The notes under the pieces were generated by a model, which was given only the letters and a program-made list of their open reading frames with translations, made no database searches and was not told the origin of the DNA. A program made the position numbers and the translations under genes. Below are positions 38,846-58,200 of a DNA stretch of 64,000 bases, piece by piece; position 1 is the stretch's first letter, and every line of letters begins with the position of its first letter. This DNA comes from Octopus vulgaris. Taxonomy: Eukaryota. Where the stretch lies: NCBI GenBank assembly GCA_951406725.2, contig OX597836.1, positions 23,994,001 to 24,058,000 of the forward strand, read 5' to 3'.

Positions 38846-40739
38846 AATAAATGCGCCCTTTTAAAGCCTGGCCAAGCTCATGGGCCCGGTTTCCCGGTCT
38901 CTATGGCGTATGTGTTCCCCAGCTCAAAATCGGGACCAAAGAATTAAAATGAAACCTACCTTAACACGACATTTTGTTACTCCAACAGGAGTATACCACG
39001 TGACTTTATCTGGCCAACAATTGCTACGACGTTTCAAATGCAATCTAGAGAGAGAGGGGGGAGAGGGAAAGGGAGACAGAGAGGGGTAGATAGAGGGAGA
39101 AGGAAAGGAGAGAGAAAGTAAGTTTGTGAGTGGGTGTGAGGTTGTGTGACTGAGTGTATGTGTGCAATTTTGTTTGTGGGTGTGCGTGTGTGCGTGCATG
39201 TCTTACAGTTTATGAGTGCCTGCGTGAGTACGAGTGTGTATATGTTGTATGTAGGACTACGCATATGTACTCCTGTCTGTGTGTGTGTGTGTGTGTGTGA
39301 GAGAGAGAGAGAGAGAGAGGGAGATCGTGCGTGCGTGTATCTGTGAGTGCATGTGTGTTTTCTGTCTATGTATATTTGTCGGTGTGCGTGTGCACGCGCA
39401 TGTTTTTCTGCTTATGAGTGCCTGCGTGCATACGTGTGTATATGTGTTGCATGTAGGACTACGCATATGCGTGTGCATTTGAGCTTGCATGTGGGGTTGT
39501 ATATAAAAATTAAGTTAATATATAGAATATGTTACGAAAATACAACACTTTGTAAATAGTTTTATGATGATAACTCGAAATTGAACAGTTTTACTGTTGA
39601 AATGTGTAAGTCTACATCTAACCAATAAGTTTAGGTGCTTAAAGCTAATCAAGATTTTCAAATTATTTTGGCAACTGACAGCACAACGCTCCCTCACTGA
39701 ATCGGATACCAGTCAGTGGGAGAGTCTCCTCCAGATGCTACTGATTCTAGTTTTCAGATAAGTGGAAAGGAGCAATAAAATGCATTGTTCAATGAAACAA
39801 GGCAACAATCATTCAAACGAAGAACCTACTGAAAATAATCAAACATTAGGCACCTGTTCTCTTGCGTTCAGTTACTTTTAATTAGTAATTTTTTATGTGA
39901 AATATTTTGTGCATTTTTCTTTGCGTGTTCAGAACTGTAATGTAGTGTAACAGTAATTATGACAAATATAACTTTTATATCTCTTCGAGATGTAACCTGG
40001 ACCAGAATATCTTTAAAGAGCCAAATGCATTATCAGTCCATTGAATAGACACTCAAAAACAGTCAAAATCCATATTTAAATCGCCAGAATATACTGAAAA
40101 TAATAACAGAAATCAACTATACGAAGGCAAACGGGTTAAGACAATCTCTTAGTAAACATTTAAGCATTTGAACTCACCTATTTGCTCCCTATTGAAACAT
40201 ATACGTGTGTGTGTGTGTGTGTACATATATATATATATGTATATGTATGTACGTATGTATATGTATATATATATATATATATATATATATATATATATAT
40301 ATATATATATATATATATATATATACATATAAATATCTACCTGCAAATATATATTCTTAGTTGTGAATATACACACGTGCACAGACACTGATAAACACAT
40401 ACACACACACACACATACGCACATGCACCCACGTACCACATACATACAGAGATAATTCTACATACATATTGGACATCAGTATATCAGACACAAAACAGCT
40501 CTTTCTTTTATTTCTCCCGTATTGAATTTAAAAAAACATAAAGAAGCATTTGTGATTGAAGTTTTCCGAATATAAGCAGCAACTTCTGAAAAAGAAACAA
40601 TTACTAACGTCTTGTATTCGAGACACAATGAAGCTATAACCATGCCTGCAAAGAATATATAAACTTCTGGAACAAACCGTAGAGTAGTAGAATGGACACT
40701 TGACAGAAAATCAAGACAGAAAAATTAAAATCCACTTAC

Positions 40740-40834
40740 CTTGACACGACATTTCTTCGCTTCAACAGGACGGAATAACAATTCACTGAAGCAGACGACA
40801 CCCTGACCTGCTGATGTATACCACGTGACTTTAT
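40740..40834 (-). other. Array core, subtype A (candidate exon, 95 nt)
   Basis: TTTCAG|ATAAAGTCACGTGG...ATGTCGTGTCAAG|GTAAGT; near-identical copy at 45386-45480. Confidence 0.55.
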
Positions 40835-55147: not shown

Positions 55148-55243
55148 CTTGACACGACATTTTGTTACTCCAACAGGACTGGGTGACAATTCACTGAAGC
55201 AGACGACACCCTAGCCTGCTGATGGTATACCACGTGACTTTAT
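55148..55243 (-). other. Array core, subtype B (candidate exon, 96 nt, stop codons in all three frames)
   Basis: GGCCAG|ATAAAGTCACGTGGTATACCATCAGCAGGCTAGGG...ATGTCGTGTCAAG|GTAAGT; representative of copies 5-10. Confidence 0.5.
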
Positions 55244-58200
55244 CTGGCCAACAATTCTTACAGCGTTTCAAATGCAATCTAGTGTGTGTGTTTCTGTGTT
55301 TGTGTGTGTGTATGTGTGTGTGCGTGTGTCTATGTATATGTGATTGTGGAACTTTTACGAATGTGCGTATGCATGCGTGCTTTAGCGAATGTCTTCGTGT
55401 CAGTTACTGCCAGTTTGTGTATATATTCGTGTTTATTTGTGCATGCGTTTGCTAGCGCCTATCTGAGTGCATGTGCATGCATGTGTGTGTAGGAGTTTGT
55501 GTATATGCTTGTGTTTGTATGTGCGTGTGTGTGTGTGTGTGCATTTGTCTATGTATGTGATTGTGCGCTTTTACTTATGTGTGTATGTATGCGTGTGTTA
55601 ACATACATGTTCGAGTGAGTTGCTGTGAGATTCAGACAATACTTTCAATACATTGGTAAAAGTCTAGTATTTAATGTCATCTTCTCAGGGCCGAACTGTT
55701 TACTTACAGGGGGCAAACACAGCAACTTCGGTTGTCATGTGGTGGTATGGGACAAACACCAACACAAAGACACACGCACATTAATCTCTCTCTCTCTCTC
55801 TTTATCTATCTATCTATCTATCTATCTATCTATCTATCTATCTATCTATCTATCTATCTATCTATCTATCTATCTATCTATCTATCTATCTATCTATCTA
55901 TCTATCTATTTCTGTCTGTTTGTCTGTCTGTCTGTCTCTCTCTCGCTCTCTCTCACTCTCTCTCCCCATATATATATATGTATATCTATATCTATATCTA
56001 TATATATATATATGCATATATATATATATATATATATGATATATACATACAAGAACGCATATATATATATATATATATAATATTAAATATACACACACAT
56101 ATATATGATGATGTTTCAGTATCTTTCTACTAAATCCACTCAAAAGGTTTGGATCGGCCCGTAGCTACAGTACAAGTCATTTGCCCAGAATACCACGCAT
56201 TGTGATTGAACTTGGAACCATGTGCTGGGTAAGCAAGTTCATCGTGGAAGCAATCATTTTGGCACAGGATAGCAGATAATTTTCTCACTCCTTGTCTCCG
56301 GTTGTCTAGCTCTATGAGTAACTGACGGTGTAGCTGTTTGTGTACCTACCTGCCCGTCTCTCTTTCTCACTCTCTCTCTCTCTCTCTCTCTCGCTCTTTC
56401 ACTCTCTGTCTCTCTCTCACATACACACACAATTGAACACACTGTTTACAAACATACGTACATACATACATGCGTACATATATATGTATATATATATACA
56501 TACATACATATATATATATATATATATATATATATACATACATATGTAGATATGCATATATGTATGTACATACATATGTATGCATATATATATATATATA
56601 TATATATATATATATATATACATACATACATTGCTACGTGTACACATATATGTTTAAACATACATTTATATATGTGTATATATTCAAACATATATATATA
56701 TGTGTATATATACAAACATATATATATATGTGTGTGTGTGTGTGTATGTATGTATGCATATATGTATGTATATATATATATATATATATATATAAAGCTA
56801 TGTAAGTATGTGTTTATGAATGTATGTCTGTATGTATGTATCTATATAACTATATATATATGTATCTCTCTCTCTCTCTCTCTCTATATATATATATATA
56901 TATATATATATATATATATATATAATATATATATAGCTTCAGAATAAATATCAGCATGCAAGTTATACAATTAGGGCGAACTTGTATTCGAAACTATGAA
57001 ACTATAATATGCCTGCAATGAATATGTGAGCTCCTGGAACAAACCACACGAAATAGTACAATGGACATTTGGCAGAAAAATTGAGATCAAAAGTTTTTCA
57101 TTTACCTTGACACGACATATTTACTCCAACAGGACTGGGTAACAATTCACTGAAGCAGACGACACCCTAGCCTGCTGATGGTATACCACGTGACTTTATC
57201 TAGCCAACAATTGTTACAGCGCTTCAAATGTCGAGTTGACAAGCATGTTTATATATCTATGTATGTGTGCGGATGCGTGTTTGTGTGCCTCTACGTCTCT
57301 GTGTCCATGCATGTACATGATTTGCGCCAAAGCTAGACTATATTACACATATATAATTACATGGAGACAGATACAAAAATTATAAATTTATTTTATATTC
57401 ATGATATTCTTTTCTTTCTATTTGCTAATGTTTCCTATACTGTTCTTAAAATTGTGAGCGTGAAAAGTTACTATTCAAATTTTGGCTACTTTATTCACTT
57501 ATTGGTCAGCACAGATATATATGTAGGAAATAGATTTTTCGCAATTTTTAACTTTTATGAGTTACTTCTTACCATTCATTGGACTACAGCCATGCTGGGG
57601 TACCGCCTTGAAGTGTTGAGTCGAATGAATTCCGCCCAATACTTATTCTTTAAACCTGATACTTACTCTATCGGTCTCTTTGCCGAATTGCCAGGTTATG
57701 GGTTCTAAGCAAACCAATAAGCGATCGAAGGAATAAACACGCGCGCGCGCGCACACACACATGGAAAATGAAATAAGACTGCGGTATATACATACATATG
57801 AGTGTGTATGTGTGTTTTATGTGTGTGTGTGTTTTGTGTATGTTGCCTTATCGCTGGAACTAAGACAAAAGTAACCTCTATTCATATTCACTGATAAATA
57901 TCAGGATGACAGGTGACCAAGTAAAGAGGAACATACCTAAAGGCAGGCGGTTTGAACGGGACTGGAACATCGTTCCTGTGAACGAACTAGGCGTGCTAGG
58001 AAGAAGGTAAACACTTGTATGTTCTCTACTTCAATCAAATGGCCTTAATTCTTCAAAATGCATGCTCTTGTTTAATTAACAGAGCTCGGCAATGATGCAT
58101 ATATAAATATATATACACACACGCACCAGCCAATTTATTATGTGAGGTAGTCAGAGAGTGCGGAACATTTTGAAATGATGTATCTTTTGTTGAGTTTGAA

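What the first reader, a model, noticed from the sequence alone, without database searches (positions are those of the whole stretch)
38930..57230. Ten-copy array of a conserved, splice-site-bounded ~96-nt module downstream of and facing Wnt1
Seen: ten minus-strand copies of ATAAAGTCACGTGG...ATGTCGTGTCAAG stay well alignable, while the surrounding units (microsatellites, a decayed SINE, Helitron and SINE insertions) vary from ~1.0 to ~4.6 kb. All ten keep YAG immediately 5' (CAG; TAG in copy 10) and AG|GTA at the 3' end (GTAAGT x7, GTAGGT x2, GTAAAT x1). This holds even in copy 4, where the bases before the donor are rewritten. The module matches no TE I recognise and has no TIR, TSD or poly(A). 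Inference: a tandemly amplified exon cassette of a lineage-specific non-coding or peptide-coding transcript. Its architecture recalls SINE-rich repeated-exon miRNA clusters such as primate C19MC, or alternative-exon arrays.
Basis: partly seen in the sequence, partly recalled or inferred. Interest (0 to 1): 0.8.

Follow-up and report, generated by a model that had tools for sequence, protein, structure and literature searches.

The report
Ten-copy donor-bearing cassette array beside Wnt1
Ten tandem copies of a short DNA module lie 28 kb past a Wnt1 gene of a mollusc (likely an octopus) and keep two small blocks almost unchanged while their surroundings drift; each copy likely works as a promoter plus short first exon aimed at Wnt1, though transcription is untested.

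Summary
The array is real: ten minus-strand copies with the stated spacing and splice-like ends, but copy 1 is a 50-nt deletion form. In older pairs the module diverges about 3-8 times more slowly than its downstream flank. It is not a high-copy transposon, and a DNA run under another organism code holds it. The 96 nt are not one conserved exon: constraint covers positions -1..58 and, less firmly, 84..102, while 59..83 drifts like flank. The donor is exceptional (its 8-mer occurs once elsewhere in the window); the acceptor is no better than a random YAG. Block 1 holds GATA, E-box and initiator-like motifs. Block 2 is the module's only ATG, 13 nt before the donor in 10 of 10 copies. Best reading (0.40): an amplified promoter plus short first exon of a spliced transcript converging on Wnt1. 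A pre-miRNA-like hairpin is there beyond chance, but its 3' arm lies mostly in the drifting linker and its loop is invariant (0.20). Protein-level selection and SL RNA tests failed. No C19MC anatomy. Expression could not be tested. New variant of a known kind; interest 0.5.

The parts
57106..57199 (-). copy 10 core (94 nt; 2-nt deletion in the linker; TAG before, GTAAAT after); first copy on the minus strand
55148..55243 (-). copy 9 core (96 nt)
51821..51916 (-). copy 8 core (96 nt)
50793..50888 (-). copy 7 core (96 nt; one change flips the predicted fold; downstream flank replaced 14 nt after the donor)
49193..49288 (-). copy 6 core (96 nt; downstream flank replaced at +14)
48133..48228 (-). 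copy 5 core (96 nt; downstream flank replaced at +14)
46833..46936 (-). copy 4 core (104 nt; 8-nt insertion in the linker; four changes in 88-94 leave ATG, codon 3, the ATG-to-donor distance and AG|GT)
45386..45480 (-). copy 3 core (95 nt; older lineage with copy 2)
40740..40834 (-). copy 2 core (95 nt)
38960..39009 (-). copy 1 core (50 nt; positions 20-65 deleted; stop in codon 4 after the ATG); likely decayed copy
55186..55245 (-). constrained block 1 (about positions -1..58), shown for copy 9; same block at about 57142-57201, 51859-51918, 50831-50890, 49231-49290, 48171-48230, 46879-46938, 45424-45482, 40778-40836. Holds AGATAA across the YAG, TCACGTG (E-box 55231-55236) and an initiator-like TCAGT (A at 55195); inferred promoter core
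   Evidence: 6/60 variable columns in 9 copies; change point; motifs; motif labels recalled
55161..55185 (-). unconstrained linker (positions 59-83), shown for copy 9; carries the copy-10 and copy-4 indels; inferred 5' UTR
   Evidence: 12/25 variable columns
55142..55160 (-). block 2 (positions 84-102), shown for copy 9: the module's only ATG, 13 nt, then the donor GTAAGT
   Evidence: 1/19 variable columns without copy 4, 6/19 with it; ATG-to-donor 13 nt in 10 of 10
55168..55222 (-). predicted 55-nt pre-miRNA-like hairpin (positions 22-76), shown for copy 9; favoured in 8 of 9 full copies, strand-specific
55244..55282 (-). 39-nt palindrome-rich leader shared by most copies, ending in YAG; CTAG at its far end in 7 of 10 copies
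10797..11138 (+). last coding exon of Wnt1 (neighbour; the preceding coding exon is at 2269-2424)

Best explanation
Each of the ten tandem copies is likely a promoter plus short first exon, so the array would give up to nine near-identical start points for a spliced minus-strand transcript that runs toward the 3' end of Wnt1. Shown: a nearly invariant 60-nt block, a 25-nt linker that drifts like flank DNA, then the module's only ATG and a near-perfect splice donor 13 nt later. Inferred: block 1 is the core promoter (GATA-like site at its edge, E-box, initiator-like TCAGT, giving a start near position 49); the linker is 5' UTR; the donor splices to shared downstream exons not identified in the window. 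The YAG would then be kept mainly as part of the GATA site. Unequal crossing-over multiplied the cassette, and copy 1 decayed. The likely gain is dosage, not isoform diversity, since the copies are nearly the same. By position the array may also act in cis on Wnt1 or its cluster, as spliced enhancer transcripts do; that step is the most speculative.
For: Selection: core 19/95 variable columns vs 96/172 downstream and 18/33 upstream in six copies (p=1e-8 and 3e-4); 14 of 15 pairs have p<0.01, pairs not independent. Against a second flank, 8 of 15 pairs have p<0.01. The constrained segment is -1..58 (0 of 200 shuffles reach it with six or five copies, 4 of 200 with three). The linker (12/25) lies between block 1 (6/60; p=2e-4) and block 2 (1/19 without copy 4; p=0.0025), inside the homology shared by the copies, which plain conversion would not produce. 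The donor 8-mer occurs once outside the cores. The acceptor is background-like, as expected of a first exon. One ATG per module, 13 nt before the donor in 10 of 10, purine at -3 in 9 of 10; copy 4's four changes spare ATG, codon 3 and phase; the only in-frame stop is in copy 1, which lost the initiator-like motif. The indels of copies 10 and 4 fall in the linker. TCACGTG is in 10 of 10 copies and only twice elsewhere in the window. Constraint is at nucleotide level (0 synonymous changes, P=0.009). Precedent for duplicated promoter-plus-exon cassettes: PMC4835542 (passages).
Against: No start site, chromatin mark or spliced product was observed; all function is inferred from motifs picked after seeing the sequence, and their labels are recalled. 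TCAGT (143), AGATAA (52) and AAAATG (95) are common in the window. Block 2 is not significant when copy 4 is included (6/19 vs 12/25, p=0.36) or among copies 5-10 alone (p=0.12). The model leaves the hairpin unexplained (0 of 150 and 1 of 150 shuffles give as good a duplex). The constrained block begins within about 2 nt of the AG, which fits an acceptor as well. No shared coding exon was found: of 138 minus-strand frames outside the array only a LINE endonuclease fragment passed a Pfam cut-off. Copy 1's remaining 50 nt differ from copy 9 at only one site, which is odd for a dead copy. Units are mosaic, so conversion has acted.
Confidence: 0.4

Rival explanations
1. Lineage-specific microRNA cluster in which each internal exon is one pri-miRNA hairpin (5p arm 22-43, loop 44-54, 3p arm 55-76); splicing would bring the hairpins together.
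For: Long hairpin favoured in 8 of 9 full copies, on the donor strand only (z -2.6 minus vs -1.0 plus for copy 9). Duplex as good in 0 of 150 and 1 of 150 shuffles. 98% of cells paired. A basal 4-bp helix sits at -13/+11 from the supposed cuts (ruler recalled). 5p variation only at positions 8-10 of the supposed mature; 5p 3/22 vs 3p 7/22 (p=0.28). The octopus annotation required presence in two species and says that it misses younger miRNAs (PMC9699675, passage).
Against: Loop 0/11 and positions 1-15 invariant while the 3p arm and 3' lower stem vary, the reverse of the usual pattern (recalled). No compensatory pair; 5 of 9 changes keep pairing, not significant (P 0.10-0.27 at transition weights 2-4). 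By unbranched-stem length the hairpin is ordinary (51 of 150 and 28 of 150 shuffles). Copy 7 refolds and copy 4 has z -0.4. UG, UGUG, CNNC and CmR motifs are absent in this register (by inspection against PMC11701709 section 9). No Rfam match on the hairpin. The 94 novel O. vulgaris genes fall in 90 families, so no 9-copy family is annotated.
Confidence: 0.2
2. Repeated internal exon of a spliced long non-coding RNA, with positions 1-58 as a protein-binding module (Firre RRD-like); closest to the first reader's view.
For: The constrained block starts at the AG and block 2 ends with the donor. YAG kept in 10 of 10, also where the upstream segment was rewritten (copies 2, 3) and with C>T in copy 10. 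Local repeat with no sign of high-copy dispersal. Precedent in PMC4820808 (passages).
Against: Acceptor no better than background. The fixed ATG and the E-box stay unexplained. No specific RNA function can be named.
Confidence: 0.14
3. Purely DNA-level tandem enhancer or insulator for Wnt1 or its cluster; the splice-like ends are incidental.
For: Nucleotide-level constraint on a 60-nt motif-rich block. The position 3' of Wnt1 would be inside the wnt1-wnt6-wnt10 cluster reported for O. bimaculoides (PMC9635652, one passage); Wnt6 itself is not in the window.
Against: Needs a perfect donor by chance (1 other in 128,000 strand positions) and does not explain block 2.
Confidence: 0.1
4. Neutral tandem duplication, perhaps of an old transposon end, with the core kept alike by gene conversion.
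For: Units are mosaic: copy 7's leader is of the copy 2/3 type, copy 1's donor side is of the copy 4 type. Young pairs show no core-flank difference (copies 2/3: 2/95 vs 4/179); 7 of 15 pairs are not significant at p<0.01 against the SINE-like block. Palindrome plus CTAG beside the core in 7 of 10 copies recalls a Helitron end (recalled).
Against: The drifting linker lies inside the shared homology between two conserved blocks. Summed contig depth on the core is 32-60 against about 5,000-28,000 on SINE pieces in a DNA run. The donor is retained through flank rearrangements.
Confidence: 0.08
5. Polycistronic small-ORF gene: exon-to-exon splicing would join each ATG to the next copy and give repeated 21-codon ORFs (tarsal-less-like).
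For: In the computed all-exon chain, 5 of 9 junctions give near-identical closed 21-codon ORFs; the ORF starts at the first base of block 2 and stops 5 nt before the end of block 1, so the drifting linker is the inter-ORF spacer.
Against: 0 synonymous changes at 17.2 synonymous sites where about 4 are expected (P=0.009); every change in the ORF is missense, nonsense or frameshift; copies 1-4 break it. The one frame searched, the 31-residue open frame of copy 3 (not the junction ORF), has 0 hits in 1.84 billion representatives.
Confidence: 0.05
6. Spliced-leader RNA genes: block 1 as snRNA-type promoter, a short leader, donor and Sm site.
For: Tandem array, conserved donor after AAG, U-rich tract behind it; the two-block pattern fits promoter plus leader.
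Against: The default Sm pattern is met in 3 of 10 copies at non-homologous sites (background 164 of 3,032). No conserved stem-loops (z -1.3 to +1.3 in 9 folds). Copies 5-7 lost the downstream part. A review lists molluscs among phyla with unconfirmed leader candidates (PMC3795323, passage).
Confidence: 0.03

Closest known systems
Tandem 5' cassette arrays with their own promoters: chelicerate sDscam and vertebrate clustered protocadherins (PMC4835542, passages)
   Same: Tandemly duplicated unit thought to contain promoter, ATG-bearing first exon and donor, all on one strand; lineage-specific expansion.
   Different: Those cassettes encode variable domains and splice to known constant exons. 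Here the ATG is followed by four codons, the copies are nearly identical, no constant exon is known, and promoter activity is not shown.
Firre RRD, an exonic local repeat (PMC4820808, passages)
   Same: Locus-restricted repeat with splice-like ends; the paper also raises non-allelic conversion.
   Different: RRD is shown to be exonic and to retain RNA in the nucleus. Here only two parts of the module are constrained and the acceptor is weak.
C19MC (PMC2691840, passages)
   Same: SINE-rich tandem units with a repeated non-coding exon-like piece of about 100-120 nt.
   Different: C19MC hairpins are intronic, between the repeated exons. Here the hairpin is inside the module, and no miRNA is shown.
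Multi-exonic enhancer-associated lincRNAs (PMC7035876, abstract only)
   Same: Possible mechanism for a spliced intergenic transcript acting in cis on a neighbouring gene.
   Different: Described in mouse cells and not as ten-copy arrays; no enhancer data exist here.
tarsal-less polycistronic small ORFs (PMC1852585, passages)
   Same: Repeated short ORFs in the computed spliced chain.
   Different: tal peptides are shown to be translated and functional. Here the ORFs exist only across hypothetical junctions and show no protein-level selection.

Membership tests
Tandem promoter/first-exon cassette array (sDscam, clustered Pcdh type) | Each repeat carries an ATG-bearing exon ending in a donor, same strand and phase | tested here: met
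   ATG 13 nt before the donor in 10 of 10; stop in copy 1 only
Tandem promoter/first-exon cassette array (sDscam, clustered Pcdh type) | Each repeat has its own active promoter | not testable with these tools
   Only conserved motifs were seen
Tandem promoter/first-exon cassette array (sDscam, clustered Pcdh type) | Splicing to shared constant exons | tested here: inconclusive
   Of 138 minus-strand frames of 40 aa or more, only a LINE fragment passes a Pfam cut-off; short, non-coding or out-of-window exons are not excluded
Tandem promoter/first-exon cassette array (sDscam, clustered Pcdh type) | Cassettes encode divergent protein domains | tested here: not met
   Four codons, the same in 8 of 10 copies
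Canonical microRNA gene (MirGeneDB criteria) | Hairpin with 20-27-nt arms, loop of 8 nt or more, most arm positions paired | tested here: met
   55-nt hairpin, 11-nt loop, 15-16 pairs in 20-nt arm windows in 9 of 9 full copies, MFE form in 8 of 9; database mean 19 +/- 1.6 pairs
Canonical microRNA gene (MirGeneDB criteria) | Reads from both arms with uniform 5' ends and 2-nt offsets (criterion recalled) | not testable with these tools
   No small-RNA reads were available
Canonical microRNA gene (MirGeneDB criteria) | Arms more conserved than loop and flanks (pattern recalled) | tested here: not met
   Loop 0/11, 5' flank 3/21, 5p 3/22, 3p 7/22 variable
Canonical microRNA gene (MirGeneDB criteria) | Processing motifs (UG, UGUG, CNNC, CmR, mid-arm bulge, U at position 1); frequent, not obligatory | tested here: inconclusive
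   U1 and the mid-arm bulge present; UG, UGUG, CNNC and the C of CmR absent, by inspection
C19MC-type cluster | Pre-miRNA in the intron between repeated exons | tested here: not met
   The hairpin lies within the module; the conserved segment does not extend into the flanks; flanks were not scanned exhaustively for hairpins
Firre-type exonic local repeat | Repeat confined to one locus | tested here: inconclusive
   No genome held; contig depth argues against high copy number at 85% likeness or more; a few distant or older copies are not excluded
Firre-type exonic local repeat | Included as internal exon in a spliced RNA | tested here: inconclusive
   Only contigs of runs guessed to be RNA could be laid; acceptor background-like
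Spliced-leader RNA gene | Sm site AT{4,6}G 20-60 nt after the donor, with stem-loops (PMC7986045, passages) | tested here: not met
   3 of 10 copies, non-homologous sites; no stable conserved fold
Polycistronic small-ORF gene (tarsal-less type) | Selection on the peptide (synonymous over non-synonymous change) | tested here: not met
   0 synonymous changes, about 4 expected
Dispersed transposable element | Many copies across the genome | tested here: not met
   Summed depth 32-60 on the core vs about 5,000-28,000 on SINE pieces in run X20, at 85% likeness; no transposon library was available

The most novel reading that the evidence does not exclude
The functional unit exists only after splicing. 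The conserved end of one module (84-96) joins the conserved start of the next (1-58) into a 71-nt unit that begins with the only ATG and stops 5 nt before its end. A 19-kb array would thus be spliced into a compact polycistronic RNA of repeated 21-codon ORFs, each module also folding into a pre-miRNA-like hairpin, opposite Wnt1. No such junction-assembled polycistron turned up in the literature searches.
Probability: 0.06. Interest if true: 0.9.

Novelty: new variant of a known kind. Interest (0 to 1): 0.5.

Why it matters
A selectively kept, tandemly multiplied module just 3' of Wnt1 would be a candidate lineage-specific control element in an old developmental gene cluster of cephalopods. If it is a promoter and first-exon array, it shows amplification of near-identical start cassettes for dosage, where the known arrays serve diversity. 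If it is a microRNA array, it would be a multi-copy family missed by an annotation that required two species, with an exon-equals-hairpin layout. The models predict different read boundaries to the nucleotide, so existing CAGE, long-read and small-RNA data can decide. Until then it is a well-defined but unexpressed candidate.

Tried and rejected
Expression: the run search on 47,900-57,400 gave no RNA holder listed; rows were only guessed as RNA. Laying four runs on 56,955-57,740 gave no joints; X4 and X17 have no cover on the core; X1 has one contig on 57,181-57,230 that stops where copy 1's deletion begins (4 other letters; copy 1 differs at 5 there) and has too few letters inside the core to count as bridging. 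Contigs, guessed run types and a single-copy stretch make all this no evidence either way, and a leader or exon under about 40 nt could not have been laid. No genome was held, so no genome-wide BLAST. Rfam: 0 at gathering on the window, nothing covering the hairpin at E<=10 in two regions. ARAGORN 0. The 21-nt core pattern: 0 in metagenome and viral contigs; a 17-nt pattern gave 18 loci, none matching beyond 20 nt, taken as chance. Six core substrings: 0 papers in full text; core substrings had 0 hits in the readable supplements of PMC9699675 and PMC11701709. Seed-match sites of the supposed arms: none in the 6 kb after the Wnt1 stop. The 27-nt invariant run is not significant once adjacent changes are merged (P=0.25). 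The first change-point run was dominated by alignment ends and was repeated on the homologous range. Editing-dependent stop readthrough, IRE, SECIS, C/D snoRNA, vault or Y RNA and a miR-216/283 likeness were considered from recall and dropped: no Rfam support and no fitting structure. The bacterial promoter scan is irrelevant. Four look-ups of earlier findings were empty. One paper asked for was not held.

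
Full report
Numbering. Copies are numbered 1-10 by rising window coordinate. Positions are on the minus strand of the 96-nt majority form; 1 is the first base after the YAG and 97-102 is the donor.

Observation. Ten minus-strand copies lie between 38,960 and 57,199, 1,028-4,646 nt apart, and a profile finds no eleventh in the window. 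Nine copies are 94-104 nt; copy 1 is 50 nt. The neighbour is Wnt1-like on the plus strand, ending near 11,138, so the array is convergent at 27.8 kb. Flanks are homologous too and mosaic: copies 5-7 switch to other sequence 14 nt after the donor, copy 7's leader resembles copies 2/3, and copy 1's donor side resembles copy 4.

Not a high-copy transposon. No genome was held. In run X20, listed under another organism code, contigs cover the core at summed depth 32-60, against about 6 on the unique upstream flank and about 5,000-28,000 on SINE pieces in the same stretch. The tool warns that this is no copy number, so I use only the contrast. One X20 contig matches 57,177-57,464 with 9 other letters in 288, so that organism is close and the cross-species test is shallow. 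Copies under 85% likeness would be missed.

Selection, and where it acts. In the six copies with homologous downstream flank (10, 9, 8, 4, 3, 2; copies 7, 6, 5 and 1 left out because they lack it), 19 of 95 core columns vary against 96 of 172 downstream and 18 of 33 upstream. Fourteen of 15 pairs differ at p<0.01; the young pair 2/3 does not. Against a SINE-like upstream block in units 4-9, 8 of 15 pairs reach p<0.01 and 7 do not, four of these involving copy 4. A change-point fit places the constrained segment at -1..58 (start -2..+2 and end 55-75 with six copies; end 52-60 without copy 4), and 59-96 as a whole matches the flank (p=0.36). Splitting further, after seeing the data: block 1 has 6/60 variable columns, the linker 59-83 has 12/25, and 84-102 has 6/19, or 1/19 without copy 4. 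Block 1 is therefore firm and block 2 is moderate. A drifting linker inside the shared homology is hard to get from conversion alone.

Splice signals. AGGTAAGT stands in 7 cores and once elsewhere on both strands of the window; this counts as one ancestral event, but a rare one. The acceptor has a pyrimidine fraction of 0.47-0.59, against 0.46 for 1,432 background YAGs and 0.65 for the two presumed Wnt1 acceptors (counted by eye). Five of 10 copies have another AG within 20 nt. The evidence is for a donor, much less for an internal exon.

Coding readings. All three frames close in copies 4-10. Each module has exactly one ATG, 13 nt before the donor. If neighbouring modules were spliced, 5 of 9 junctions would give closed 21-codon ORFs whose ends match the two conserved blocks. 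But there are no synonymous changes at 17.2 synonymous sites where about 4 are expected among copies 5-10 (P=0.009), and copies 1-4 break the ORF. Copies 1-3 are open through the module in another phase; the copy-3 frame has no relative among 1.84 billion representatives (a 31-residue query is weak). The constraint is on nucleotides.

Hairpin. Positions 22-74 form a long hairpin on the donor strand in 8 of 9 full copies, with z about -2.4 to -2.8 for three chosen 65-nt windows and -0.4 to -2.6 for five whole cores. A miRNA-type duplex as good arose in 0 of 150 and 1 of 150 shuffles, whereas stem length alone was matched in 51 and 28 of 150. Dimensions fit MirGeneDB ranges (PMC11701709, section 9 read whole). 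There is no compensatory pair, pair-keeping changes are not in significant excess, the loop is invariant and the 3' arm lies mostly in the linker. This keeps the microRNA reading alive at 0.20 but second.

Best mechanism. A promoter and first-exon cassette explains most with least. Block 1 carries AGATAA across the YAG and TCACGTG in 10 of 10 copies and an initiator-like TCAGT in 9 of 10; TCACGTG occurs twice elsewhere in the window, while the other motifs are common (motif labels recalled). A start near position 49 makes block 1 the -50..+10 region, the linker a 5' UTR that tolerates the indels of copies 10 and 4, and block 2 the start codon and donor. Copy 4's four changes spare ATG, codon 3 and phase; copy 1 lost the middle of block 1 and has the only in-frame stop. 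Shown: the anatomy and the pattern of constraint. Inferred: promoter activity, splicing, the downstream exons (none recognised among 138 frames), dosage as the gain, and any effect on Wnt1. The hairpin remains unexplained under this model. Confidence 0.40; the other rivals are a lncRNA internal exon 0.14, a DNA-only enhancer 0.10, neutral 0.08, small ORFs 0.05 and SL RNA 0.03.

Comparison with known systems. It would work like the duplicated promoter-exon cassettes of sDscam and clustered protocadherins (PMC4835542, passages) but fails their variable-domain feature, so I do not file it there. It differs from C19MC, whose hairpins are intronic (PMC2691840, passages). Firre RRD is the precedent for an exonic local repeat (PMC4820808, passages). 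Cis action of spliced enhancer transcripts comes from an abstract (PMC7035876). The wnt1-wnt6-wnt10 cluster in O. bimaculoides is from one passage (PMC9635652). Also seen as passages: PMC9699675 (plus two of three parts of its table file and searches of its supplements; its data archive unreadable), PMC11347158, PMC7986045, PMC3795323, PMC1852585. Nothing describing this element was found in ten searches; the library lacks most subscription journals and the MirGeneDB sequences.

Verdict. It is most likely a multiplied start cassette facing Wnt1. Expression is untested. New variant of a known kind; interest 0.5.

Noticed in passing
45484-45513 and 40838-40867, minus strand, just before copies 3 and 2: A roughly 30-nt quasi-palindrome ends at the YAG; the other copies keep only its first part. 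On the plus strand, palindrome plus CTAG then T (7 of 10 copies) recalls a Helitron 3' end.
   Followed up: partly
about 94 nt after the donor in copies 10, 9, 8, 3, 2 (e.g. 55054-55063): An acceptor-like pyrimidine tract ending in GCAG would define a short intron; the frame behind it is not conserved between copies.
   Followed up: partly
44997, 40342, 56351, 53057 (minus strand): Further donor-like sites inside units, paired between copies 3/2 and 10/9; possible extra exon ends.
   Followed up: no
copies 5-7, 14 nt after the donor (48119, 49179, 50779): The flank switch joins to sequence also present at about 53,670-53,990 and creates a 6-bp hairpin that would pair the donor.
   Followed up: partly
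copies 1, 2, 3: Two different deletions at the same place (1 nt and 46 nt) shift the frame by the same amount and leave the module open from phase 1 to phase 0; a relic coding exon is possible, but no protein relative was found.
   Followed up: partly
51065-51100 and 47160-47190 (minus strand): A short stretch after a CA repeat, 140-230 nt upstream of copies 7 and 4, resembles the 39-nt leader of the core; perhaps an older partial duplication.
   Followed up: no
16266-17507 and 36914-37757 (minus strand): Two related LINE fragments, about 73% alike; the first has an endonuclease domain above the Pfam cut-off.
   Followed up: partly
20284-21045 and 29138-29990: Two pairs of inverted repeats of about 340 nt with CCTAAC/TTAGGG-type units, between Wnt1 and the array; probably non-autonomous transposons.
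   Followed up: no
35634-35752: A 57-nt direct tandem duplication at 98% identity in otherwise unique sequence.
   Followed up: no
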